Assembly: GCA_951406725.2 (NCBI GenBank)
Contig: OX597834.1
Coordinates: forward strand, 46,500,001-46,564,000
Direction of reading: 5' to 3'
Source: Octopus vulgaris
Taxonomy: Eukaryota
Length of the DNA stretch: 64,000 bases
The notes below the pieces were generated by a model. It saw only the letters and a list, made by a program, of their open reading frames with translations, did no database searches and was not told where the DNA came from. Shown one piece after another: positions 1 through 52,280 of the stretch. Each line of letters begins with the position of its first letter. Position 1 is the stretch's first letter. Made by a program: the position numbers and the translations under genes.

Positions 1-239
1 AGCTGAGGAAGGAAGCTGAGAACCTCTGTGTATCACATATCCGATATCCGGATAGCACTCTCTATACTGACCTCTTGTTGGCACAAACTTTTATGCCATA
101 ATGCGTGCGTGTGTCTGTGTGTATGTGTGAGGCCAAAGTTTATGCTTCAAACTTTGGGCGGCATATAAATCTAAAACAACTACCGTAGGACTAACAACAA
201 TAATAAAATAAAGATACTATTAATAATAACAATAATAGC

Positions 240-675
240 AATATTTGGCGTGAAAGATGAACTACGGCAAATATTGTGCTCAATATCGTAGATTTGCCTG
301 TCCGTTGCTTGACCTTAACCAGTTGAGCATGTCCTTTAGTGGCTGACGATATGTGCATCAGTGATCACGAGTAGGAGTAGTGGGGGAGCGTCATAGCCAT
401 GTGTTGAGAGGGATTCTTTGGGGTTTGAATAATTCACCACTGGAAATAGGGATACTTCTTCCATCATCCTTAAACTGCCCTTATACAAGGACCTTTTGAG
501 TGGGACGGGTTACTGAACCTGAAAATATTTTAACTGCTCCCACCCCAGATCTGCAAGGCCATGCGCTGTTTATCTTGATATGGGGTCACCACATCACGCA
601 CATATGGCTGTGATGCATGTGCCAGGTGTACCCTAATCAGAAGGGTGGTCATGATGGGTATATTTGTACCCCAGC
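240..675 (+). repeat. Unclassified interspersed repeat, flanked by (AAT)n/(GAT)n
   Basis: Aligns by eye to the reverse complement of about 44190-44610 (e.g. GACCTTAACCAGTTGA, TTAGTGGCTGACGATATGTGCATC, CATAGCCATGTGTTGAGAGGGATT). Confidence 0.75.
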
Positions 676-869
676 GTAATGATGATGATGATGATGATGA
701 TTTATTTTATTTACTAAAGGGGAATAATGATAAATCCCGACCAAACTCTTTTATATTCAACAAGGACTATAACTTCAGCAACAGCAACAGTAGCAGCAGA
801 AGTGGTCTAACAAGCAAGTGCAGCAGAAACAGCAGCAGCAGCAGCGACTGTTGAGAACAAACCAATTAC

Positions 870-2030
870 CGCAGTAGTAGTCTGAGGAAAGAACTAACGG
901 GATGATGATGAAGAGCAGAGGAAGTGAGGAGGACGAAAAGGAAAGGAGAAAGTTTAATGATCGTCAGGGCTGAAGAGGCAGATTTAAAGGCTGAGGTATG
1001 AATATGCCAGAGGTGTTGCTATTGTTATTGCTATCGCTTGTGGTAGCGGTGGTGGTGGTGGTGGTGGTGGTGGTGGTATCGTCGTTGTTGTTTTGCCCTC
1101 AAGTCAATCTATGATATGGGTGTTAGATTTCCTAAAATATATATAAGTTAAATTTCTCGCAAAATCGCAGCCCCTCGTCTTGCAAAAGCAACATCAGTTT
1201 GGGCCAGCGCAAGACATGGGCATGCTCGGCAGTTGGCCGGAGACCCCAAGAGCCCAAGTACCCAATTTTAATTTAAGTACTTTGTGGCTTGCTCTCAATA
1301 AAAAAAAAATACTATAGGGTTCAGATCCCTGACTTACCCGGGTTCTTATAAGCTGATGTTGCTTTTGCAAGACGAGGGGCTGCGATTTTGCGAGAAATTT
1401 AGCTAATATTCTGTTGTGTCTGGGGAGAGTCATTTTCTTTTTGTGTGCCTTATAATGTAACACACTCACCGGTACAATTTCCCCTTATTTCATATTTTTA
1501 TTTTCCTAAAATTTTCATTGCGTCTTGCAACATTTTCAATAGTTTTGACTCTGGAAATGATAAAGGTTGCAGGACGCAATGAAAATTTCAGGAAAATAAA
1601 AATAAGAAATAAGGGGAAATTTTACCGGTGAGTGTGTTACATTATAAGGCACAAAAAGAAGATGACTCTCCCCAAACACAACAGAATATGCTTCAACACA
1701 CGAACTCATATAAAGAATCTTGCAAACCAAATCCAAAAACGAAATTTAGCTTATATATGTTTTAGGAATTCTAACACCCATATCATAGATTGACCTGAGG
1801 GCAAAACAACAACACCAACAATGAAGACGACACCACCACCACCAACAACAACAACAGCAACAACAAATATGGAAGCAACAACAATAGCAACATCTCTGGC
1901 ATATTCATACCTCAGCCTTTAAATCTGCCTCTTCAGCCCTGACAATCATTAAACTTTCTCCTTTCCTCTTTGTCTTCCTCCTTCCTCTCCTCTTCATCAT
2001 CATCCCATTAGCCCTTCCTCAAACTACTAC
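870..2030. repeat. Nested inverted-repeat structure (outer arms about 870-1156/1741-2030; inner hairpins 1148-1197/1352-1404 and 1406-1535/1563-1689)
   Basis: Reverse-complement matches, e.g. TCAGGGCTGAAGAGGCAGATTTAAAGGCTGAGGTATGAATATGCCAGAG versus CTCTGGCATATTCATACCTCAGCCTTTAAATCTGCCTCTTCAGCCCTGA. Confidence 0.9.
1406..1742. mobile_element. Penelope-like terminal-repeat fragment in fold-back form (family F)
   Basis: Similar to 63240-63600 and 40555-40630; hammerhead-like core at 1506-1542 (-). Confidence 0.55.
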
Positions 2031-2141
2031 TCTCTATTAATGCTTCTAAGACGGCCCTGCATATCAGGATGATGTATTCCTAGATAAACTGTCTAATAAA
2101 AATAGTATTATTACAGGTAAATCGCTTTTGGTCATATACTT

Positions 2142-2213
<72 letters not shown>

Positions 2214-2695
2214 TCTTTCACTCTCACAAGGCTGAGCTGAATTTAAGCAACAACAACAATAATAAGATCATTGACTGCTGTTCTCGATAGTAACTTAAAT
2301 TTGTTAAAAACGTCCACAATAACAACAGCAACCTTTAATTATAATTCCCAATTTAGGCGCGACCCAGCAGGGAGAAGTACAATCACTGACCCTAGCAGTG
2401 GACTGTTACTTTATTTTGTCAATCATGAATAGCAGAGTCGATGGTGGCGAGATTTGAACTCAGAATCTAATAAATAGGAATATATTCAGTCAAATATTTA
2501 TTTTTCGGCGATCTAACGACTGCGCCAGCCCCCAGCCCTTTAACTACAAATTTAGGTGCTGACCCCAGTACTTGACTGGTACTTTTTCGTTTATTGATTC
2601 CAAAAGGATGTAAAAACAAAGCTGACTTCAGTGGGATTTGAACTGGAAACGGGAAGAGCCAGCATTGCAGCATTTCTTCTGATGTTCTAACGATT

Positions 2696-2931
2696 CTTAT
2701 TTCTTTATTGCCCACAAGGGGCTAAACATAGAGGGGACAAACAAGGACAGACAAACTGATTAAGTCGATTATATCGACACCAGTATGTAACTGGTACTTA
2801 TTTAATCGACCCCGAAAGGATGAAACGCAAAGTCCACTTCGGCGGAATTTGAACTCAGAACATAACGGCAGACGAAATACTGCTAAAGCATTTCGCCCGG
2901 CGTGCTAACGATTCTGCCAGCTCGCCGCCTT
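2696..2931 (-). mobile_element. tRNA-derived SINE family C, full length, inserted in an older family C copy (about 2560-2965)
   Basis: Head GGCGGCGAGCTGGCAGAATCGTTAG, box B GAGTTCAAATTCC, central TTTCATCCTTTCGGGGTCGAT, tail AATAAAGAAATAAG; 18-bp imperfect TSD at about 2680-2697/2932-2949. Confidence 0.85.
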
Positions 2932-3019
2932 TGGTGTTCTAATGATTCTGCCACTTCGCTACACTTAGGTGTCTGAATTTATGTATATGAATGTGAAATA
3001 TATGTGTGTATCTTTCTGT

Positions 3020-3174
3020 TTGTTTACGTCTATGTAAATTAGCAGTTCAGCAAAAATAATCGATAGAATAAGCACTAGGCATTCAAAAAAAGTGAGTATT
3101 GGCGATTGATTTTGTTGGACTAAAACCTTTCAAAGCAGTGCTCCAGTATAGCCGCAGTTCAATGACTGAAACAA
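3020..3174 (+). mobile_element. SINE family A, 3' half
   Basis: GATAGAATAAGCACTAGGC...GCAGTGCTCCAGTATAGCCGCAGTTCAATGACTGAAAC matches the family A tail. Confidence 0.65.
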
Positions 3175-3530
3175 CCTCCCACACACACACACACACACAC
3201 ACCACACACCACTTCTTCCAGGAGGTTGCAAACCGGTGCTATATCATTATGGTCAATAACGCCCCAGACGTTTGACCAGTGGTCGAAGAAGTAGGTCATA
3301 GTGACCTTCTCATAATGGCTACTCGTTAATTAGTATGAATAATAAGATGATAATGCCTAGCTCATTAGCAAAACTTATTAGTCTATAAACAAACGCTATT
3401 AATGATTTCACTGTGTGATGTCATTTGGTTTTCTTACAGAACACATGGTTGTCTTCTGATATATATATACCGGCTGTTGACATATATGCGAGAATCGTGG
3501 GGAGGAAGGGCGCGAAGGTATATGTCTAGG

Positions 3531-3564
<34 letters not shown>

Positions 3565-3614
3565 CACTCGTTTCAGTCATTTGACTGTAGCCATGCTGGA
3601 ATATACATATGTAT

Positions 3615-3647
<33 letters not shown>

Positions 3648-3651
3648 TACA

Positions 3652-3700
<49 letters not shown>

Positions 3701-3889
3701 ACATGCGCGCGCACGTGCATTCACACACGCACGTACGCATATAATGATTTCCAGCGATCTGTTTTGTTGTTAAGCTGGACGTGCTTGAGTGACGGGTTTC
3801 GATTTCTTTATGACTATAGAAATAAACACACACACGCACACACGTGTAACTCTTCATATATATGTATACACATCTATCTGTCTAGCTAG

Positions 3890-4191
<302 letters not shown>

Positions 4192-4939
4192 GGTGTGTTG
4201 CGTGTGTATGTGAATGTGTGTTTATAGATATATAAACATAGATGCTTGCATGTGTGAGTGGTAACACACACACACTTAGCAAAGGGCCGACAAGTTAATG
4301 CGGAGTGTGGGAGCGGGTGCGAGTGGATGGTTGGGTGACTGCTTGCTGACACACGAAGGGAAGACGTGTCAATATTCACACACAATACACACACACACAC
4401 ACAAACACACAAACACACCTTTACATATACACTCACACACACACATATCCACACACAAGTCTATATACAGATATATACACAACCTCTCACACAATAGTTT
4501 ACTGCTTATAATTAGTCGCACATGTATGCCCCCCCCCTCTCTAGATCGCTTTATTCCTCTATTGACTGACTTGTGTATATAAGTGCTTCTATCTGTTTGC
4601 CTGCATTTCTGTCAGTCCTCTCTCTCTCTCTCGCTTACTCTCTTTCTCTCTCTCTCTGTCTCTCGCATCGATCCCTCGCGAGTAAAAAGCTTTACGAATA
4701 GTTGTGTAGCATCATTCGGTGCAAATGCGTCGCGTCAGGTGACTTGTCAAAAGGCACCTCATTTTTGGCCGAAACAATCGTAATGATTAATAAAGAAACT
4801 CGGGATTTTTATTTTCTTTCTCTGTATCTCATGTTATAAACTCTTCTGACACATACTGTTGGTGTCGTCAGGTAGCCGAATACAGTGAATCGGCTTTAAA
4901 CGACATACTACAAGGTGTATACCCAAATTTATAATTATA

Positions 4940-5121
4940 TGTTGGCGATTTTCTTTCTCCGTCTTCCCTTCTTTCAACCTTTCCGTTTTCTATGTTTCTG
5001 ACGAAGAGCTCCGCTCGAAACGTTAAATCCTTCTTTCTTTCCTTTCCTGAGCGTCCAATAACACTATACTTGTTCCACATCCTCGTGTTGTGTTTTCTCT
5101 TTGTTCATGTTTGGATTACCT
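4940..5121 (+). mobile_element. Penelope-like 3' terminal fragment (family C) ending in (TA)n
   Basis: Second copy at about 31700-31895; contains a minimal hammerhead motif. Confidence 0.65.
4994..5028 (+). ncRNA. Minimal type I hammerhead ribozyme motif
   Basis: GTTT-CTGACGA-A-GAGC(TCC)GCTC-GAAA-CG-TT-AAAT: intact core boxes, 4-bp stem II, palindromic ACGT stem III, 4-bp stem I including one G-U. Confidence 0.65.
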
Positions 5122-11537: not shown

Positions 11538-11951
11538 ACTCTTTTACTCTTTTACTTGTTTCAGTCATTTGACTGTGGCCCTGCTGGAGCACCGCCTTCA
11601 TTCGTGCAAATCGACCCCAGGACTTATTCTTTGTAAGCCTAGTACTTATTCTATCGGTTTTTCTGTCGAACCACTAAGTTACGGGGACGTGAACACACCA
11701 GCATCGGTGGTCAAGCGAAGTTGGGGGACAAACACAGACACACAAACATATACTCACACGCATATATATATATATATATATATATATACGACGGGCTTCT
11801 TTCAGTTTCCGTCTACCAAATCCACTCACAAGGCTTTGGTTGGCTCGAGGCTCTAGTAGAAGACACTTGTCCAAGGTGCCACGCAATGAGACTGAACCCG
11901 GAACCATGTGATTGGTAAGCAAGCTACTTACCACACAGCCACTCCTGCGCC
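11538..11951 (-). mobile_element. tRNA-derived SINE family A, full length, with internal TA/CA microsatellite
   Basis: Head GGCGCAGGAGTGGCTGTGTGGTAAG, box B-like GGTTCAGTC, CORE-like CCTTGG(G/A)CAAGTG, tail GACTGAAACAAGTAAAAGAG; more than ten copies in the window. Confidence 0.9.
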
Positions 11952-34158: not shown

Positions 34159-34175
34159 TTATAGATAGATAGATA

Positions 34176-35560
34176 TGTTTCTTTATTAGCCACACAGGGC
34201 TGCACACAGACAGGACAAATTACAAGGTAGAGCTTTTCTCTTGGGGGTAAAAAAAGGGGGTTTGGTTTTCGATCAAAAGGGATCGTAAAAGGAAAGAAAG
34301 AGGACAAAAAAATAAGGGAAAGGAAAAGAAGGGGAAAGGAAAAAAAATTTATCAATAGGGATCGTTATCACAGAAATGTCAATATAAAGTGTAAAGGGGA
34401 GGACAGGTGAGGTTTACCCGTGGAAAGAAAAGCCTACGGAAAAGACCACGGTAACCTCGGTCAATGGAGTCACATGTTATATTTTTTTGCAAATAAGCAA
34501 CTCTCTGTATTAATTTTTACGGTTCATAGAATCATAGTCAAGGTGGCTTCGTCATTCATACGTGCCATCCTTGCTACATTCACCCATCTTTTTTAAAACA
34601 TTCACTAGACAAAACTTGCCTCTCTACTCTCACTTTCCTCTTCAAGTGATACTTGAAGAAGTTGATGAGAGATTGACCAGAGAGGAAAGTGTTTGTCTCT
34701 AATCCTTTCAGGCGCGTCCACCAGATACATTCTTTCACCATAGCCACAAGTATGATAAAAATAGCTCTTCCTTCCCGTTTGAAGGAAGGAGGTGTGACGA
34801 TATTAACGATAGACTCGGCTGATAAACTGACACGTCCCACACGTGACAGCAGTCGTTCGATATAAACCCACAGGTCGGAGATTGTTGGACACTGCACGAT
34901 TGCGTGCAGAACGGTTTCGTCGCTCTGCCCGCATCTCGGGCAGGTCGGCCCCGTGTTTCCCGAGCCATGCCTATAAAGCTTATCCCGAATGGGTAGCGCT
35001 TCTCGGTAGCACTGCCAGGCCAGGGATCTCTGGAAGTTGTCCATAGGTCCCGGCCCGAAAGTCGTTTCAAACAGGCGGGTCAGGTATTCCTCGTCGACGC
35101 CCAGGTTTGCCCCAAGATCGTCGTCGTACCTCCCCTCCACTAATCCCCTATAGAATGCTTTGGTTGTGTTGAAGTCACTCAAAGTCGACCCGGGACGACA
35201 GAGTTGCTTTAGAGCAACGCGACACTCGCGGTGCCATTCGCCCTTCCTCGGCCTCTTTTTGATCCACGACTGCAGTTCGGTCATGGAGACGAGCTGCGGG
35301 AACGCGTGCCTCACAAACGGCGACCACACCTGTTCACCTTCGTCTACATAGAGCCGGAGATGTCGCAGTCTCAGCGCGTGTCTGCGCATCATCAACCATG
35401 GTATGCCCAGCCCTCCTTTTAACGGGTGTTGACAGCAAATGGTTCGCCTGACCATCGGGACGCATCCTTTCCACAAGAAGCGGAAGAGAATGCGTTCTAG
35501 TTTGGTGATGGTAGGGTCGGGACAAGGTACGACGGTCAGGCGGTAGTAGATGATGGACGC
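34176..35560 (-). mobile_element. 5'-truncated Tx1/L1-clade LINE inside (GATA)n
   Basis: ORF2 C-terminal region (RFLWKG, KGGLGIP, zinc finger CPRCGQSDETVLHAIVQC), open for about 980 bp; 3' end GGCTAATAAAGAAA; GATA arrays on both sides. Confidence 0.92.
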
Positions 35561-35561
35561 G

Positions 35562-35632
<71 letters not shown>

Positions 35633-35634
35633 CT

Positions 35635-35874
35635 TTAGTGTAAGCTGGGTATATTTGGCACCCGGTAAGTGTGGTCGGATCAAGAAGTAATGCTTCTACC
35701 CAGATGGCTGGGTTTCTTGCCCTACTATGTGATATTAAATTTGTAAACTTTATATTGTAAATATTGTACACATACTGTAGATACTAAAACGTTTTAAGCT
35801 ACTACACCCTTTATGTTTGTATTTGTATTTTTCCCTCTTTGTAACGGCTAATGGCGAATTTTCATGAAATAAAA
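35635..35874 (+). mobile_element. Short 3' fragment of a Tx1-family LINE related to 35888-39412
   Basis: AAGCTGGG..T.TTTGGCACC.GGTAAGTG and the terminal ATGAAATAAA are shared with 39129-39411. Confidence 0.7.
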
Positions 35875-36124
35875 TAGTTTGCTTACCTCTGTCGTGGAAA
35901 GACGTGTTTTTGTTTTTTTGGCGCTGAGTCAAACGTTTTGTTGCGCGTGGATAATTTTTTCTATTGGAATTGTTGTCTATTGTTGAATATTTTCGAAATG
36001 TTGAACATTGCAGAACTTGGGAAATTTTTGTGCTTTTTCCCGGTGACGGGAGAAAATAATTGTTGAAATATTGAAATTATTATTAATATTGAATTTATTA
36101 ATATTATTAATATTGAACTTATTA

Positions 36125-36385
36125 AAGCCGTTGTAGGCTTTATTGTCGTGCCCCCCCCCAGCGGGGGTGGCATTTGAACTGTTATCCTCATTAAGAGGAA
36201 AAAATATTATAGGTTTCCCGTTTTTGGGGATAAGCAATTTATTATTGCGAGAAAAATTAAATTTCAGCCGATGTAGGCTCTATTGTGGCATCCGCCACTA
36301 GCGTGGGTGAGATTTGAACTGTTGTCCTCGTTGTGAGGAAAAAAAAAGTAAAAAATTATAGGTTTCCCTTTTTCTGGGATTAAAT
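36125..36385 (+). repeat. Two diverged direct repeats of about 110-120 bp in the LINE 5' UTR
   Basis: AGCCG.TGTAGGCT.TATTGT...ATTTGAACTGTT.TCCTC...ATTATAGGTTTCCC occurs twice. Confidence 0.8.
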
Positions 36386-36410
36386 TGTGTATCATTTATT
36401 TCGAACGAAT

Positions 36411-37148
36411 ATGTCGGTCGAAATAATCCCAGAAACGAACCAGCTGCATGAACCAGCAAAAAAGTTCGCGGCAGTAACCGCTGTCTCTTCTAAAGATATT
36501 GTATTAGTAACGGAGAAGCTCTCCGAGCTTTTTGAGAGAATAAAAGAGGAGGGTGGGGATATGAAAATCTTACCCTTCCCTAGTGTTGAAAATCTGAAGA
36601 GAAGGACAGTCGTTTACAAAACGTACTGTCCTTCATCGAAGAAATTCAAGCACTTCGAAAAGTGCGAAATAGAAAAATGCCTGGCCCCTATATGGAAAGA
36701 TATAAAATACATAGCGAGGGTTCGGGCATATGGAACAATAGCGGCCAGATTTGAGACGGCTGAAAAAGCCCAAGAGCACTCAGTGAGTCCTCTGAAAACG
36801 AAGGAGGTGGTGCTGCTCCGAACATACATGGGAAGGAGAACAGCACGCGTCCGAATAAACGAAGTACCACCAGAAATTGAGGCAAGGGAGGTGATGGCCG
36901 CCCTGTTGTATAACAGGACGGACAAAATCACCTTCCTTCAAATTACATGCACTTCCCCACAATGTTGGCAAGGGCAGAGCATCTCTGCGATTATTAAAGG
37001 AACGCAACAAGACATCGAAATACTACCAGAAAGAGTGCTCTTGGGGGAAGATATTGCCCTCAAGATTCAAGTAGAGGGCAAAAAGCCCACGTGTTTCGAA
37101 TGTGGCAAAAAAGGCCACATTCGCGTAGAATGTGAAAAATGGAAGTAA
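36411..37148 (+). CDS. LINE ORF1 (gag-like, CCHC zinc knuckle), probably prematurely stopped
   Basis: CFECGKKGHIRVEC = CX2CX4HX4C; P/T/K-rich coding-like sequence continues past the stop. Confidence 0.75.
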   Translation: MSVEIIPETNQLHEPAKKFAAVTAVSSKDIVLVTEKLSELFERIKEEGGDMKILPFPSVENLKRRTVVYKTYCPSSKKFKHFEKCEIEKCLAPIWKDIKYIARVRAYGTIAARFETAEKAQEHSVSPLKTKEVVLLRTYMGRRTARVRINEVPPEIEAREVMAALLYNRTDKITFLQITCTSPQCWQGQSISAIIKGTQQDIEILPERVLLGEDIALKIQVEGKKPTCFECGKKGHIRVECEKWK

Positions 37149-37539
37149 AAAATAAGTGCGCAGACATCAGACCCTTCAACTACAGAAAAAAACCCTAAAC
37201 CCGCACACAAATTAACTCCCACAGAAACAAATACTTCCACCCCACCATCTGTGGAACCCGCTCCCAAACAAAACACACAAAAACCCCCAGGCCATTCACA
37301 CACCGGTCCCGACAGAAACAAATGCACCCACCCTCTCTGAAGTAACAACTCCTCTGGAAGACACCATGGAGGTGACCGAGGGGGAGTTCAAGACACCCAG
37401 AAAAAAGAGAACATATGCACCTTCCCCATCCATATCCCCCACAAAGAAAAAAGAAGAAAAACAGCACACCACAGAGAAAAAAGATCCCGCTCCACTGTCC
37501 CAGAAGAAAAAATAAAAAAGAACAAAGACGGAACAAAAA

Positions 37540-39150
37540 CTATCGGTACTTGGTGGCGGTCCTCGAGAAGGCTGGCCTGGGCCCGACCTTTCGCGGTTGG
37601 ATTGCTGCGTTGTACAGCGACATCGAGTCCGTCATAAAAGTGAATGGTTTCCTTTCGAAGCTATTCAGGATCGAGCGCTCAGTACGTCAGGGGTGTCCCC
37701 TGTCCCCGCTTTTGTATGTACTGGCCCTCGAGCCATTATTGCGGAAGTTGGAGCCACTAGGGGGCGCACCGCATGATCTATGGTGTGGAAGAGGAGCTAT
37801 GGTGTATGCAGATGACAGTTCCTTCATCGTGGCAGATGGGGGCCAGCTTCCAGTGGTGGAAGAAGCTATCAAAAGTTACGAGGCGGTGGCCGGAGCAAAG
37901 GTTAACAAGGACAAGTCAATTGGTTTGCAGCTCGGCACCTGGAGGGGCAAGCCGATGCCGTCCAATAACGTCGTGGAGCGTTGGACGGAAGGTCCTGTTA
38001 AGCTGCTCGGAGTCTGGTTCGGGCCAGACCTCCAGATTGAGAAAAATTGGAGTGAGGTGGCCAACAAGGTGACCGCTCTAATCCAGACTTGGTCTGGGCG
38101 GGCGTTATCCCTGCTAGGGAAGGCGGAGGTGGTGCAGATGTTTATAGCATCGGTTATTACCTACCGTCTGACCATGTTGCCTTGCCCCGATTTGTGGATG
38201 AATAAGTTGGAAAGAATCTTTTTCCACTTTTTGTGGAAGGGAGGAAAGCCACTCGTGAAGCGCTGTGTCTGCTGCCAGAAACCGCTAAAGGGTGGGCTAG
38301 GAATGCCTTGGCTGAGGATGCGAAAATTCGCGTTAAGTTTGAGGCACCTCTGGCTTTATCTGGATGGAGAGCAGGTGTAGTCACCGCACGTTCGGTTCTA
38401 CCTTCCGCAATTAACGTCCTTAACGGACATTGGTAATTAGATCAAGCAGAGACCTAGGCTGGAGGACTGGCAATTGGAGTGCCTCCAGGCACTTCAGCTA
38501 CTCACTCGGGCGGGCAATGCCGACAACAAGAGTTCCACCGCGGATTTCTATAGTGGGTTAGTGGAGGTTAAGTCCGAAGACGCCTTGGGGGAGATCCTGG
38601 GCTACGACGAAAATCAGTTAATCAACCTGTTCCGGAGAAATTTCGGGCCAGGGCATCTGGACAATTACCAGAAATCTCTGGCTTGGCAGTGCTTCCGTGC
38701 GGCGTTACCTGTTCGTGATAAACTGGAAGGCACGGAAGTGCCGTCTCGCCGACATGTCCGAGGTGTGGGCAGGACAGGGAAACCGTCTTGCACGCATTTG
38801 TGGAGTGTCCGGAATTAACGAGACTGATAGTTTTCGTAGAGCAACTGTTGTCATCGATGAGAAGAGTACAGCTATCAGCTGAATCTATCATCGAGATTGT
38901 GCCGTCTCCTGCCCTTAACAGGGAAAGGAAGGCTTGCTTTTTCTGTGTAGTAGCCATACTGAAAGAAACAGTATGGAAGACGCGCGTGAGAGGCATAGTG
39001 TCGGGTACCTTTGTATCTGGCCAGGGGTTGGTTAACATTTTTAGTTACCACCTCATTATAAGATCAGGCTGGAGAAAAGGTACCTGTCACGAGACAGATT
39101 CATGAGAAGATGGAAGCCTGTGGCGAGGAAGCTGGGAGTGTTTGGCACCA
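37540..39150 (+). pseudogene. LINE ORF2 remnant (RT C-terminal half plus zinc finger)
   Basis: RT motifs, GGLGMP and C-terminal homology to the 34580-35560 ORF; stops and frameshifts; no endonuclease or RT N-terminus. Confidence 0.9.
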
Positions 39151-39412
39151 GGTAAGTGGAAGCCAAAAACAGGAAAGAAAAAGCAAGGTGTCTACCCTGG
39201 TGGTCAGATGCCTATCCTTCAGAGAAGCCATTACAAATTTCATTTGTAATGAGCAACGCTTAAGTCAAAAGCGAAAAACGAATTTATTAAATTATTGTAT
39301 ATTTTAAATTGTAAATATTTCATCGCTATAGCTACTTCACCCATTTATGTTTGTCTGTTCTTGTTCGCCCCCTGTTTGTAATGCCTTCATGGCAAATATT
39401 TATGAAATAAAC

Positions 39413-39759
39413 TAGCTTGCTTACCAACCACATGGTTCCGGGTTCAGTCCCACTGCGTGACACTTTGGGCAAGTGTCTTCTACTATAGCCTTGTGAGTGG
39501 ATGTTGTTTTTAGGCGGAAACTGAAAGAAGCCCGTCTTATATATGTATAAATATATATATATATATATATATATACAAAACTATGAGAGAGAATCCCCTA
39601 TGTGGACGCTCTAACGCTAGATGAGCGTCCACATAGTGGATTCTCTCTCATAGTTTTGTATTAATAATATTTACTGAATCCCAGTCTTTTATCCGCTAGA
39701 CCACTTGGTCTTTAGATTGGTGTTATTAAATTAATATCCAATTTTTTCACCTTTATTTT

Positions 39760-39814
<55 letters not shown>

Positions 39815-40028
39815 GGTATATGTTTGTGTGTCTGTGTTTGTCCCCCCAACATCGCTTGACAACCGATGTTGGTGTGTTTACGTCCCCGTAACTTAGTTCG
39901 GCAAAAGAGACCAATAGAATAAGTACTAGGCTTACAAAGAATAAGTCCTAGGGTTGATTTGCTTCACTAAAGGCGGTGATCCAGCATGGCCACAGTCAAA
40001 TGACTGAAACAAGTAAGTAAAAGAGAGT
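39413..40028 (+). mobile_element. SINE family A lacking its first ~25 nt, with an insertion (39575-39765) in its internal (TA)n
   Basis: Starts TAGCTTGCTTACCAACCACATGG; complete 3' half and tail. Confidence 0.88.
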
Positions 40029-42842: not shown

Positions 42843-43035
42843 GGCGCAGGCGTGACCGTGTATTGAGAAGCTTCCTTCGCAACCACATGGTTCCGGGTTA
42901 AGTTCCACTGCCTGACACCTTGAGACCGACTGAATAAGTACTAGGCTTACAAAGAATAAGTCCTGGGGTCGATTTGTCCGGCTAAAGGCTGTGCTCCCCC
43001 ATGGCCGCAGTCAAATGACTGAAACATGTAAAAGT
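42843..43035 (+). mobile_element. SINE family A with internal deletion
   Basis: Head joined directly to the tail segment. Confidence 0.75.
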
Positions 43036-52083: not shown

Positions 52084-52182
<99 letters not shown>

Positions 52183-52260
52183 TGTTTCTTTATTAGCCAC
52201 ACAGGGCTGCACACAGATAGAACAAATTACAAGGTAGAGCTTTTCTTTTGAAGGTTTAAA
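52183..52260 (-). mobile_element. Extreme 3' end of the GATA-associated Tx1 LINE
   Basis: Near-identical to 34176-34240; GATA arrays on both sides. Confidence 0.85.
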
Positions 52261-52280
52261 TAGATAGACAGGTAGATAGG

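What the first reader, a model, noticed from the sequence alone, without database searches (positions are those of the whole stretch)
35635..39425. Tandem Tx1 LINEs inserted at the same site in a tRNA-derived SINE head
Seen: the 3.5-kb element is flanked by TAGTTTGCTTACC (35875-35887) and TAGCTTGCTTACC (39413-39425), which is SINE A head sequence, and SINE A continues after the second copy. Directly upstream is the 3' end of a diverged relative that also ends ATGAAATAAA just before the same word. Two related but distinct elements therefore appear to have used one site. Established: Tx1 families target multicopy small-RNA loci (U2, 5S, tRNA spacers) and form tandem arrays. Inference: a sequence-specific LINE that parasitises an abundant SINE or its parent tRNA. 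Caveat: the first ~25 nt of the SINE are not visible upstream.
Basis: partly seen in the sequence, partly recalled or inferred. Interest (0 to 1): 0.8.

Follow-up and report, generated by a model that had tools for sequence, protein, structure and literature searches.

The report
Two LINEs share one SINE site
Two related, dead LINE retrotransposons sit one behind the other at the same base of an abundant short repeat (SINE) in what is likely an octopus genome, which suggests, but from one locus does not prove, that this LINE family aims at that repeat, as some known LINEs aim at other repeats.

Summary
A 3,525-bp L1/Tx1-type LINE (B, 35888-39412) lies between two copies of a 13-base word (12 of 13 alike) that is bases 26-38 of an abundant SINE; the SINE runs on after the second copy. 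Directly upstream is the 3' end of a related family (A, 64% alike) that stops at the same base. A and B each recruit many contigs in runs of two organisms, so A is no local duplicate of B. Corrections: B lacks its endonuclease and half its RT (internal deletion), the SINE's first 25 bases are missing, and 'Tx1' and 'tRNA-derived' are likely, not shown. Added: a sister family (C) lies in (GATA)n arrays in 2 of 2 copies with one junction, so this lineage looks target-specific. Best reading (0.65): sequential target-primed insertions at a preferred SINE site, like SINEU-3/Tx1-Mar tandems in crocodilian Mariner-N4. The deciding genome-wide tally of 3' flanks could not be made: no genome was held and the read-laying output did not show the junctions. 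Main rival: B aims at the A-rich tail of its relatives. New member of a known kind; interest 0.4.

The parts
35636..35874 (+). Element A: 5'-truncated 3' end (last ORF2 codons and 3' UTR, ending ATGAAATAAAA) of a LINE family related to B
   Evidence: 64% alike to B's end; frame FSVSWVYLAPGKCGRIKK* matches B's WECLAPGKWKPK frame; own deep contig coverage in two organisms
35875..35887 (+). 5' copy of the likely target-site duplication (SINE bases 26-38, one mismatch)
35888..36410 (+). 5' UTR of element B, with two ~110-140 bp repeats (36126-36231, 36266-36380, 75% alike)
   Evidence: blastn; the UTR label is inferred from its place before ORF1
36411..37148 (+). ORF1 of B (245 codons to a stop at 37146, probably premature), CCHC knuckle near its end
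   Evidence: Pfam zf-CCHC E 0.0011, 19.5 bits, below the 20.8 cut-off; no protein relatives of near length found
37538..39155 (+). Rest of ORF2 of B: starts mid-RT after an internal deletion at ~37540 that removed the endonuclease and the RT's first half; stops at 38378 and 38438, frameshifts near 38726 and 39057
   Evidence: tblastn of 1096-1146-aa relatives starts at their residue 590-597; RVT_1 E 7.8e-9, zf-RVT E 1.5e-4; contigs in X2 leave the stretch at 37540 and enter at 37542; stops
39156..39412 (+). 3' UTR of B ending ATGAAATAAAC, no poly(A) tail
39413..39425 (+). 3' copy of the likely target-site duplication, continuous with the SINE body
39413..40025 (+). Host SINE from base 26 to its 3' end; A-box-like motif (bases 11-21 of intact copies) lost, B-box-like motif (bases 54-64) kept
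34175..35563 (-). Element C: 5'-truncated sister LINE, (GATA)n arrays on both sides; internal control for target specificity in this lineage
   Evidence: 68% alike to B over 456 bp; zf-RVT E 1.2e-7
35563..35632 (.). (GATA)n array between C and A, where the SINE head would be expected
52182..52263 (-). Second C-family 3' tip, same 3' junction, again inside a (GATA)n array

Best explanation
Two related LINEs of the L1/Tx1 type lie head to tail at base 26 of a SINE, and they likely got there one after the other because their endonuclease is predicted to prefer this SINE sequence. Inferred steps: A's endonuclease nicked the bottom strand between SINE bases 25 and 26 (within 1-3 bases, since the element's TAAA end resembles the SINE's TAAG) and its RNA was copied in by target-primed reverse transcription; the second nick, 13 bases on, duplicated bases 26-38. 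The insertion left 'A-rich end + SINE body', which still offered the downstream half of the site, and B later cut the same base and made the visible 13-base duplication. The SINE head and most of A were lost later or at insertion, near the (GATA)n array into which sister family C inserted. B then lost its endonuclease and gathered stops. The site lies between the A-box-like and B-box-like motifs, so an insertion would silence that SINE copy and harm no gene, the usual safe-haven logic. Shown: words, junction register, SINE continuity, deletion, multi-contig families, C's two microsatellite sites. Inferred: order of events, nick positions, specificity, clade name.
For: (1) 13-base direct repeat around B equal to SINE bases 26-38. 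(2) A and B end at the same SINE base in register. (3) A is a family of its own: summed contig depth 3425 and 1865 over its two bins in X2, 197 and 91 in X11, against 29-70 for the 16 single contigs listed (the tool says summed depth is no copy number). (4) B and C fall in one 7-row clade (SH-aLRT 100, quick tree) with an Argonauta protein, and 2 of 2 C copies share one 3' junction and have (GATA)n on both sides. (5) Rough model with an assumed 2.7-Gb genome and 100-5000 relative ends: a new copy lands exactly on a relative's end with chance 2e-8 to 9e-7 if random, 8e-6 to 4e-4 with a TAAAA preference, 2e-4 to 2e-2 if aimed at SINE heads. (6) Precedent: tandem SINEU-3 copies 'sandwiching a TSD' in the abundant Mariner-N4_AMi (PMC4494074 section 14); Utopia 3' junctions on another Utopia in 20 of 94 cases in N. 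vitripennis (PMC4640811 passage).
Against: One locus only, and its two junctions are not independent. No tally: no genome held; one search showed 20 of 1277 loose-end rows and 15 of 123 joints, none at either junction; no relatives' DNA in JGI, GTDB or IMG/VR collections. The SINE head and A's own 5' duplication are missing and no flanking duplication around the whole A-to-SINE block was found (longest shared word 6 bases). With roughly 2-5 x 10^5 heads per genome (extrapolated from 5-11 in this window), a double hit stays rare even under SINE targeting (at most about 2%), so something must favour re-use of an occupied site. 10 of 11 SINE heads aligned from the window are empty. The endonuclease that would carry the specificity is deleted in this copy. 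The two words differ at one base.
Confidence: 0.65

Rival explanations
1. B aims at the conserved A-rich 3' end of its own relatives (self-targeting, or a T^AAAA-type tail preference). The SINE lies downstream only because A happened to land in one.
For: The last 20 bases of A and B match at 16; A ends TAAAA, an L1-type cut word (recalled knowledge of L1); explains why the site was re-used although SINE heads are very many. SINEs cover about 11.6% of the O. vulgaris genome (PMC13282606), so one landing in a SINE is not rare.
Against: A plain TAAAA preference has about 1.3 x 10^7 sites and makes the tandem 27-60 times less likely than SINE targeting. Known Tx1 targets listed in PMC4494074 are other repeats, not the element's own end. 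Sister family C uses an external target.
Confidence: 0.13
2. A never inserted into a SINE: the A-SINE junction is a template-switch chimera (a 5'-truncated SINE cDNA that jumped to the 3' end of an A RNA), and B later used that junction.
For: Explains the missing SINE head and the missing duplication left of A in one step. The break lies in an 8-pair inverted repeat of the SINE head (-5.7 kcal/mol, z -2.45, 5 of 200 shuffles as stable), where an RT could pause.
Against: B's exact landing still needs a preference. The hairpin is modest and the whole head folds only at z -1.63. A deletion beside a long microsatellite that took a further insertion explains the loss as well (inference).
Confidence: 0.1
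3. The A end plus the word is a fixed 5' part of the B family, or the whole A-B-SINE block was amplified as one unit (hitchhiking), so there was only one original event.
For: In X2 the summed depth over A (3425, 1865) is of the same order as over B's first bin (2698).
Against: In X11 A (197, 91) is 9-20 times deeper than B's first bin (10). A starts inside ORF2 codons like an ordinary 5'-truncated copy. The word between A and B equals B's 3' flank, as a duplication made at insertion would.
Confidence: 0.1
4. A is an old local duplicate of B's 3' end, or the match is chance.
For: Both ends lie within 3.8 kb of each other.
Against: A and B are only 64% alike while the best run holds 38% of the stretch's 31-base words and A recruits its own contigs at 85% or more in two organisms; chance of the word about 5.5e-7.
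Confidence: 0.02

Closest known systems
Tx1-Mar LINEs and SINEU-3 in Mariner-N4_AMi of crocodilians (PMC4494074; passages and sections 14 and 15 read)
   Same: APE-type LINE group inserting at one site of an abundant, dispersed transposon; 13-16-base TSD (AGGTTCCCATCAGCAT there); tandem copies on both sides of one TSD.
   Different: Target here is a SINE head, not a DNA transposon; invertebrate host; specificity there was counted (313 of 347 SINEU-3), here it rests on one locus.
Tx1L in Tx1D (Xenopus), Tx1-9_AMi in Harbinger, Tx1-8_Crp/Tx1-4_AMi in LTR elements (as listed in PMC4494074; Christensen 2000 not read)
   Same: Tx1 families that specialise on another mobile element.
   Different: None of the targets listed there is a SINE; clade membership of B not tested against these.
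Kibi and Koshi, Tx1 families in (TC)n and (TTC)n; crocodilian families in (TTCC)n/(TTTC)n (PMC4494074 passages)
   Same: Closest parallel for sister family C, in a microsatellite in 2 of 2 copies.
   Different: Repeat unit is (GATA)n/(TATC)n; two copies only.
Keno (U2), Mutsu (5S), Dewa (tRNA-Leu spacer), Utopia (U2, tandem arrays) and Dada DNA transposons in tRNA genes (PMC3706591, PMC4640811 passages)
   Same: Fixed site in a multicopy small-RNA-type sequence; some Dada TSDs lie in the tRNA A box.
   Different: Those targets are host RNA genes; Utopia has an RLE endonuclease, Dada is a DNA transposon; no tRNA gene target was seen here.

Membership tests
Tx1 clade non-LTR retrotransposon | RT of the L1/Tx1 type | tested here: met
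   RVT_1 E 7.8e-9; best solved relatives are LINE-1 ORF2p (E about 2e-16) ahead of R2 (E 5e-8)
Tx1 clade non-LTR retrotransposon | N-terminal APE endonuclease in ORF2 | tested here: inconclusive
   Absent in this copy through an internal deletion; relatives at 46-50% identity carry PF03372; the four closest relatives are too short to hold it
Tx1 clade non-LTR retrotransposon | ORF1 with CCHC knuckle and ORF2 C-terminal zinc motif (features recalled) | tested here: inconclusive
   zf-CCHC 19.5 bits and zf-RVT 22.8 bits, both under Pfam's cut-offs; zf-RVT in C passes at 32.7
Tx1 clade non-LTR retrotransposon | RT tree groups it with Tx1L, Keno, Kibi and apart from L1 | not testable with these tools
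   No named Tx1 or L1 sequence came into the session (names); the tree has no such reference
Target-specific LINE family (criterion of PMC4494074) | More than 20% of flanks hold the same sequence type | not testable with these tools
   No genome; junction rows not shown; window alone: A 1 of 1, B 1 of 1, C 2 of 2
Target-specific LINE family (criterion of PMC4494074) | Target-site duplication at a fixed base of the target | tested here: met
   13-base repeat around B, 12 of 13 alike, equal to SINE bases 26-38; A's own left duplication is missing
tRNA-derived SINE (host repeat) | Dispersed high-copy short element | tested here: met
   11 heads aligned in 64 kb; summed depth over 10^6 in the last bin in both contig runs
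tRNA-derived SINE (host repeat) | Head like a tRNA, with A and B boxes | tested here: inconclusive
   A-box-like TGGCTGTGTGG at 11-21 and B-box-like GGTTCAGTCTC at 54-64, judged against recalled consensus; acceptor-like outer stem; ARAGORN 0 genes, Rfam no tRNA hit even at E 10

The most novel reading that the evidence does not exclude
An octopod LINE lineage has split into sister families with different fixed targets: C in (GATA)n microsatellites, A and B in the Pol III promoter head of a dominant SINE. Each insertion cuts the SINE's A box from its B box and rebuilds a favoured site from the LINE's own A-rich end plus the SINE body, so copies chain up at used sites. That would be a hyperparasite of a SINE and a natural pair of close endonucleases for asking how target specificity switches.
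Probability: 0.4. Interest if true: 0.62.

Novelty: new member of a known kind. Interest (0 to 1): 0.4.

Why it matters
Target-specific LINEs are studied as models of safe-haven parasitism and as tools for site-directed insertion. A family aimed at a SINE would add a target class that my searches did not find in print, in a genome type where SINEs cover over a tenth of the DNA. The more useful point is the sister pair: B and C are 68% alike in ORF2 DNA yet sit in different repeats, so their endonucleases could show which residues switch the target. The principle (Tx1 families living inside other repeats, in tandem around a TSD) is known, and unchecked notes of this scan report like cases in other genomes, so the surprise is modest.

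Tried and rejected
Own genome: none held. Read laying: the two raw-read runs chosen by shared species label (X22, X23) did not hold the element (517 and 11 reads, nearly all on an AT-rich patch at 36017-36143); the two contig runs covered all 30 bins but showed only 20 of 1277 loose-end rows, none at 35875-35887 or 39412. I draw no conclusion from that absence. 4 of 24 listed runs were laid. DNA patterns of the shared 3' end in metagenome, genome and viral contigs: 0; SINE pattern in viral contigs: 0; protein-guided searches: no confirmed locus; plasmids: no match. ORF1 homologs of near length: none. An open frame across the B-SINE junction, searched in case predicted proteins span other junctions: nothing or three unrelated repeat proteins, rejected as chance. 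A duplication around the whole A-to-SINE block: not found. Print searches for a SINE-targeting Tx1 or for octopus Tx1 targets found no such report; the library lacks Repbase Reports and most subscription papers, so this is no proof of novelty. Supplements: PMC13282606 gave only a count (80 L1-Tx1 families, 56 Mb); of PMC9115989, 4 of 8 files were searched, and its transcriptome FASTA, which might hold junctions, could not be read. Scan notes by place or sequence: nothing. The careful tree did not finish; only the quick tree is cited. Rejected: B as a full-length element; the two nicks as a symmetric cut of the palindrome (they are not symmetric about its centre; read from the sequence).
Full report
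Observation. The coordinates given are right. TAGTTTGCTTACC stands at 35875-35887 and TAGCTTGCTTACC at 39413-39425, each one base after ATGAAATAAA. Aligning the 11 SINE heads of the window shows that the word is bases 26-38 of the SINE and that after 39425 the SINE runs on without a break to its 3' end near 40025; its 5' part is 90-92% alike to four other copies. With up to two mismatches the word occurs five times in 64 kb: the two junctions and three SINE heads; chance at a fixed site is about 5.5e-7. The first 25 bases of the SINE are not near the locus.

Anatomy. From left to right: a (TA)n(GATA)n array; element C on the minus strand (34175-35563); a second (GATA)n array; element A (35636-35874); the word; element B (35888-39412); the word; the SINE body. 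B has a repeated 5' UTR, an ORF1 with a weak CCHC knuckle, and an ORF2 that begins in the middle of the RT: full-length relatives align only from residue 590-597 on, and contigs of another run leave the stretch at 37540 and enter at 37542. B is thus a dead, internally deleted copy without its endonuclease, with two stops and two frameshifts. Pfam gives RVT_1 and zf-RVT; the best solved relatives are LINE-1 ORF2p, ahead of R2. The closest named protein is from Argonauta hians (58%), so the host is likely an octopod; that is inference, supported by recall of octopus SINEs. A is the last ORF2 codons and 3' UTR of a relative, 64% alike to B overall and 77% over the last 83 bases.

Are A and B families? 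20 of the 24 listed runs, from 9 studies and five organism labels, hold part of the stretch. Two contig runs, of organisms B and C, cover all 30 bins; over A the summed depth is 3425 and 1865 in X2 and 197 and 91 in X11, while the 16 single contigs listed have depth 29-70. The tool warns that summed depth is no copy number, but it shows many contigs at 85% or more for A, which is too far from B to borrow B's. A local duplication is therefore unlikely. The same call could not give the tally of 3' flanks: the raw-read runs did not hold the element, and 1257 of 1277 loose-end rows were hidden. No other route gave DNA context.

Internal control. C is 68% alike to B over 456 bases and joins B and the Argonauta protein in one 7-row clade (SH-aLRT 100, quick tree of 37 rows). 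Both C copies in the window (34175 and 52182) end in the same junction and have (GATA)n on both sides. Two cases are few, but they make target specificity the likelier state for this lineage.

Mechanism. Target-primed reverse transcription with a 13-base stagger gives flank-TSD-element-TSD-flank; a second insertion at the same nick gives A-TSD-B-TSD, as seen. An order-of-magnitude model (assumed 2.7-Gb genome, 100-5000 relative ends) puts an exact second hit at 2e-8 to 9e-7 if random, 8e-6 to 4e-4 with a TAAAA preference and 2e-4 to 2e-2 with SINE targeting. Random insertion is out; SINE targeting is best of the three but still makes a tandem rare, so re-use of an occupied site is probably favoured, as seems to be so for SINEU-3 in a target of about 11,800 copies (PMC4494074). 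What B recognised cannot be told from one locus: it cut between A's A-rich end and the SINE body. I give 0.65 to the SINE sequence as the shared target, 0.13 to the relatives' own 3' end, 0.10 to a template-switch chimera for the A-SINE junction, 0.10 to a block amplified as a unit and 0.02 to duplication or chance. The site lies after the A-box-like and before the B-box-like motif and inside an 8-pair inverted repeat (z -2.45); an insertion would separate the boxes (inferred). ARAGORN and Rfam do not call the head a tRNA.

Known systems. PMC4494074 (passages, sections 14 and 15) lists Tx1 families in Tx1D, Mariner-N4, Harbinger, LTR elements, U2 and microsatellites, and describes tandem SINEU-3 copies around one 16-base TSD. 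PMC4640811 (passages) shows tandem Utopia. PMC3706591 (passages) has Dada transposons in tRNA genes and names Dewa, Keno and Mutsu. PMC8869645, PMC5753468, PMC3747384, PMC4824008, PMC8967140 and PMC9115989 (passages) and PMC13282606 (part 1 of 3 and its supplement) add background, including 13 recently active L1-Tx1 families and 11.6% SINE in O. vulgaris, but in what I saw no target analysis. Kojima and Fujiwara 2004, Christensen 2000 and Ohshima and Okada 1994 were not read. It works like Tx1-Mar; membership of Tx1 proper is likely but untested, as no named reference was at hand. Searches found no SINE-targeting Tx1 in print; Repbase Reports are outside the library. Unchecked notes of this scan describe like cases in other genomes; they are no support, but they lower the surprise.

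Verdict. A real, well-formed tandem of two related LINEs at one SINE base; probably a target-specific family with a new target, a new member of a known kind; deciding count still to be made. Interest 0.4.

Noticed in passing
window 34175-35563 (-) and 52182-52263 (-): Sister LINE family C: both copies end in the same junction and lie inside (GATA)n arrays, a likely microsatellite-targeting family like Kibi/Koshi.
   Followed up: partly
window 39573-39661: Near-perfect inverted repeat of about 85-90 bases (-41 kcal/mol as DNA) inside the host SINE's middle (TA)n stretch; single copy in the window; may be a tiny MITE or a fold-back duplication.
   Followed up: no
window 36562 to 39380 (joint in run X2): One contig joins ORF1 directly to the last ~30 bases of B's 3' UTR with 8 other letters between: a further internally deleted copy, perhaps a non-autonomous derivative.
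   Followed up: no
SINE heads at 11951, 15201, 26592, 50941 against 23824, 30126, 42843, 52574: Two head variants: one close to GTAAGTAGCTTGCTTACC (with the inverted repeat, the one used here), one with GAAGC..TTCC. The copy at 42843-43031 joins the head straight to the SINE's 3' part.
   Followed up: no
window 36126-36231 and 36266-36380: Two 75%-alike repeats in B's 5' UTR, like promoter monomers of some LINEs; much deeper contig coverage there than over ORF1.
   Followed up: no
runs X22 and X23: Runs added by shared species label held neither the LINE nor the SINE, so the label does not mark the same organism.
   Followed up: no
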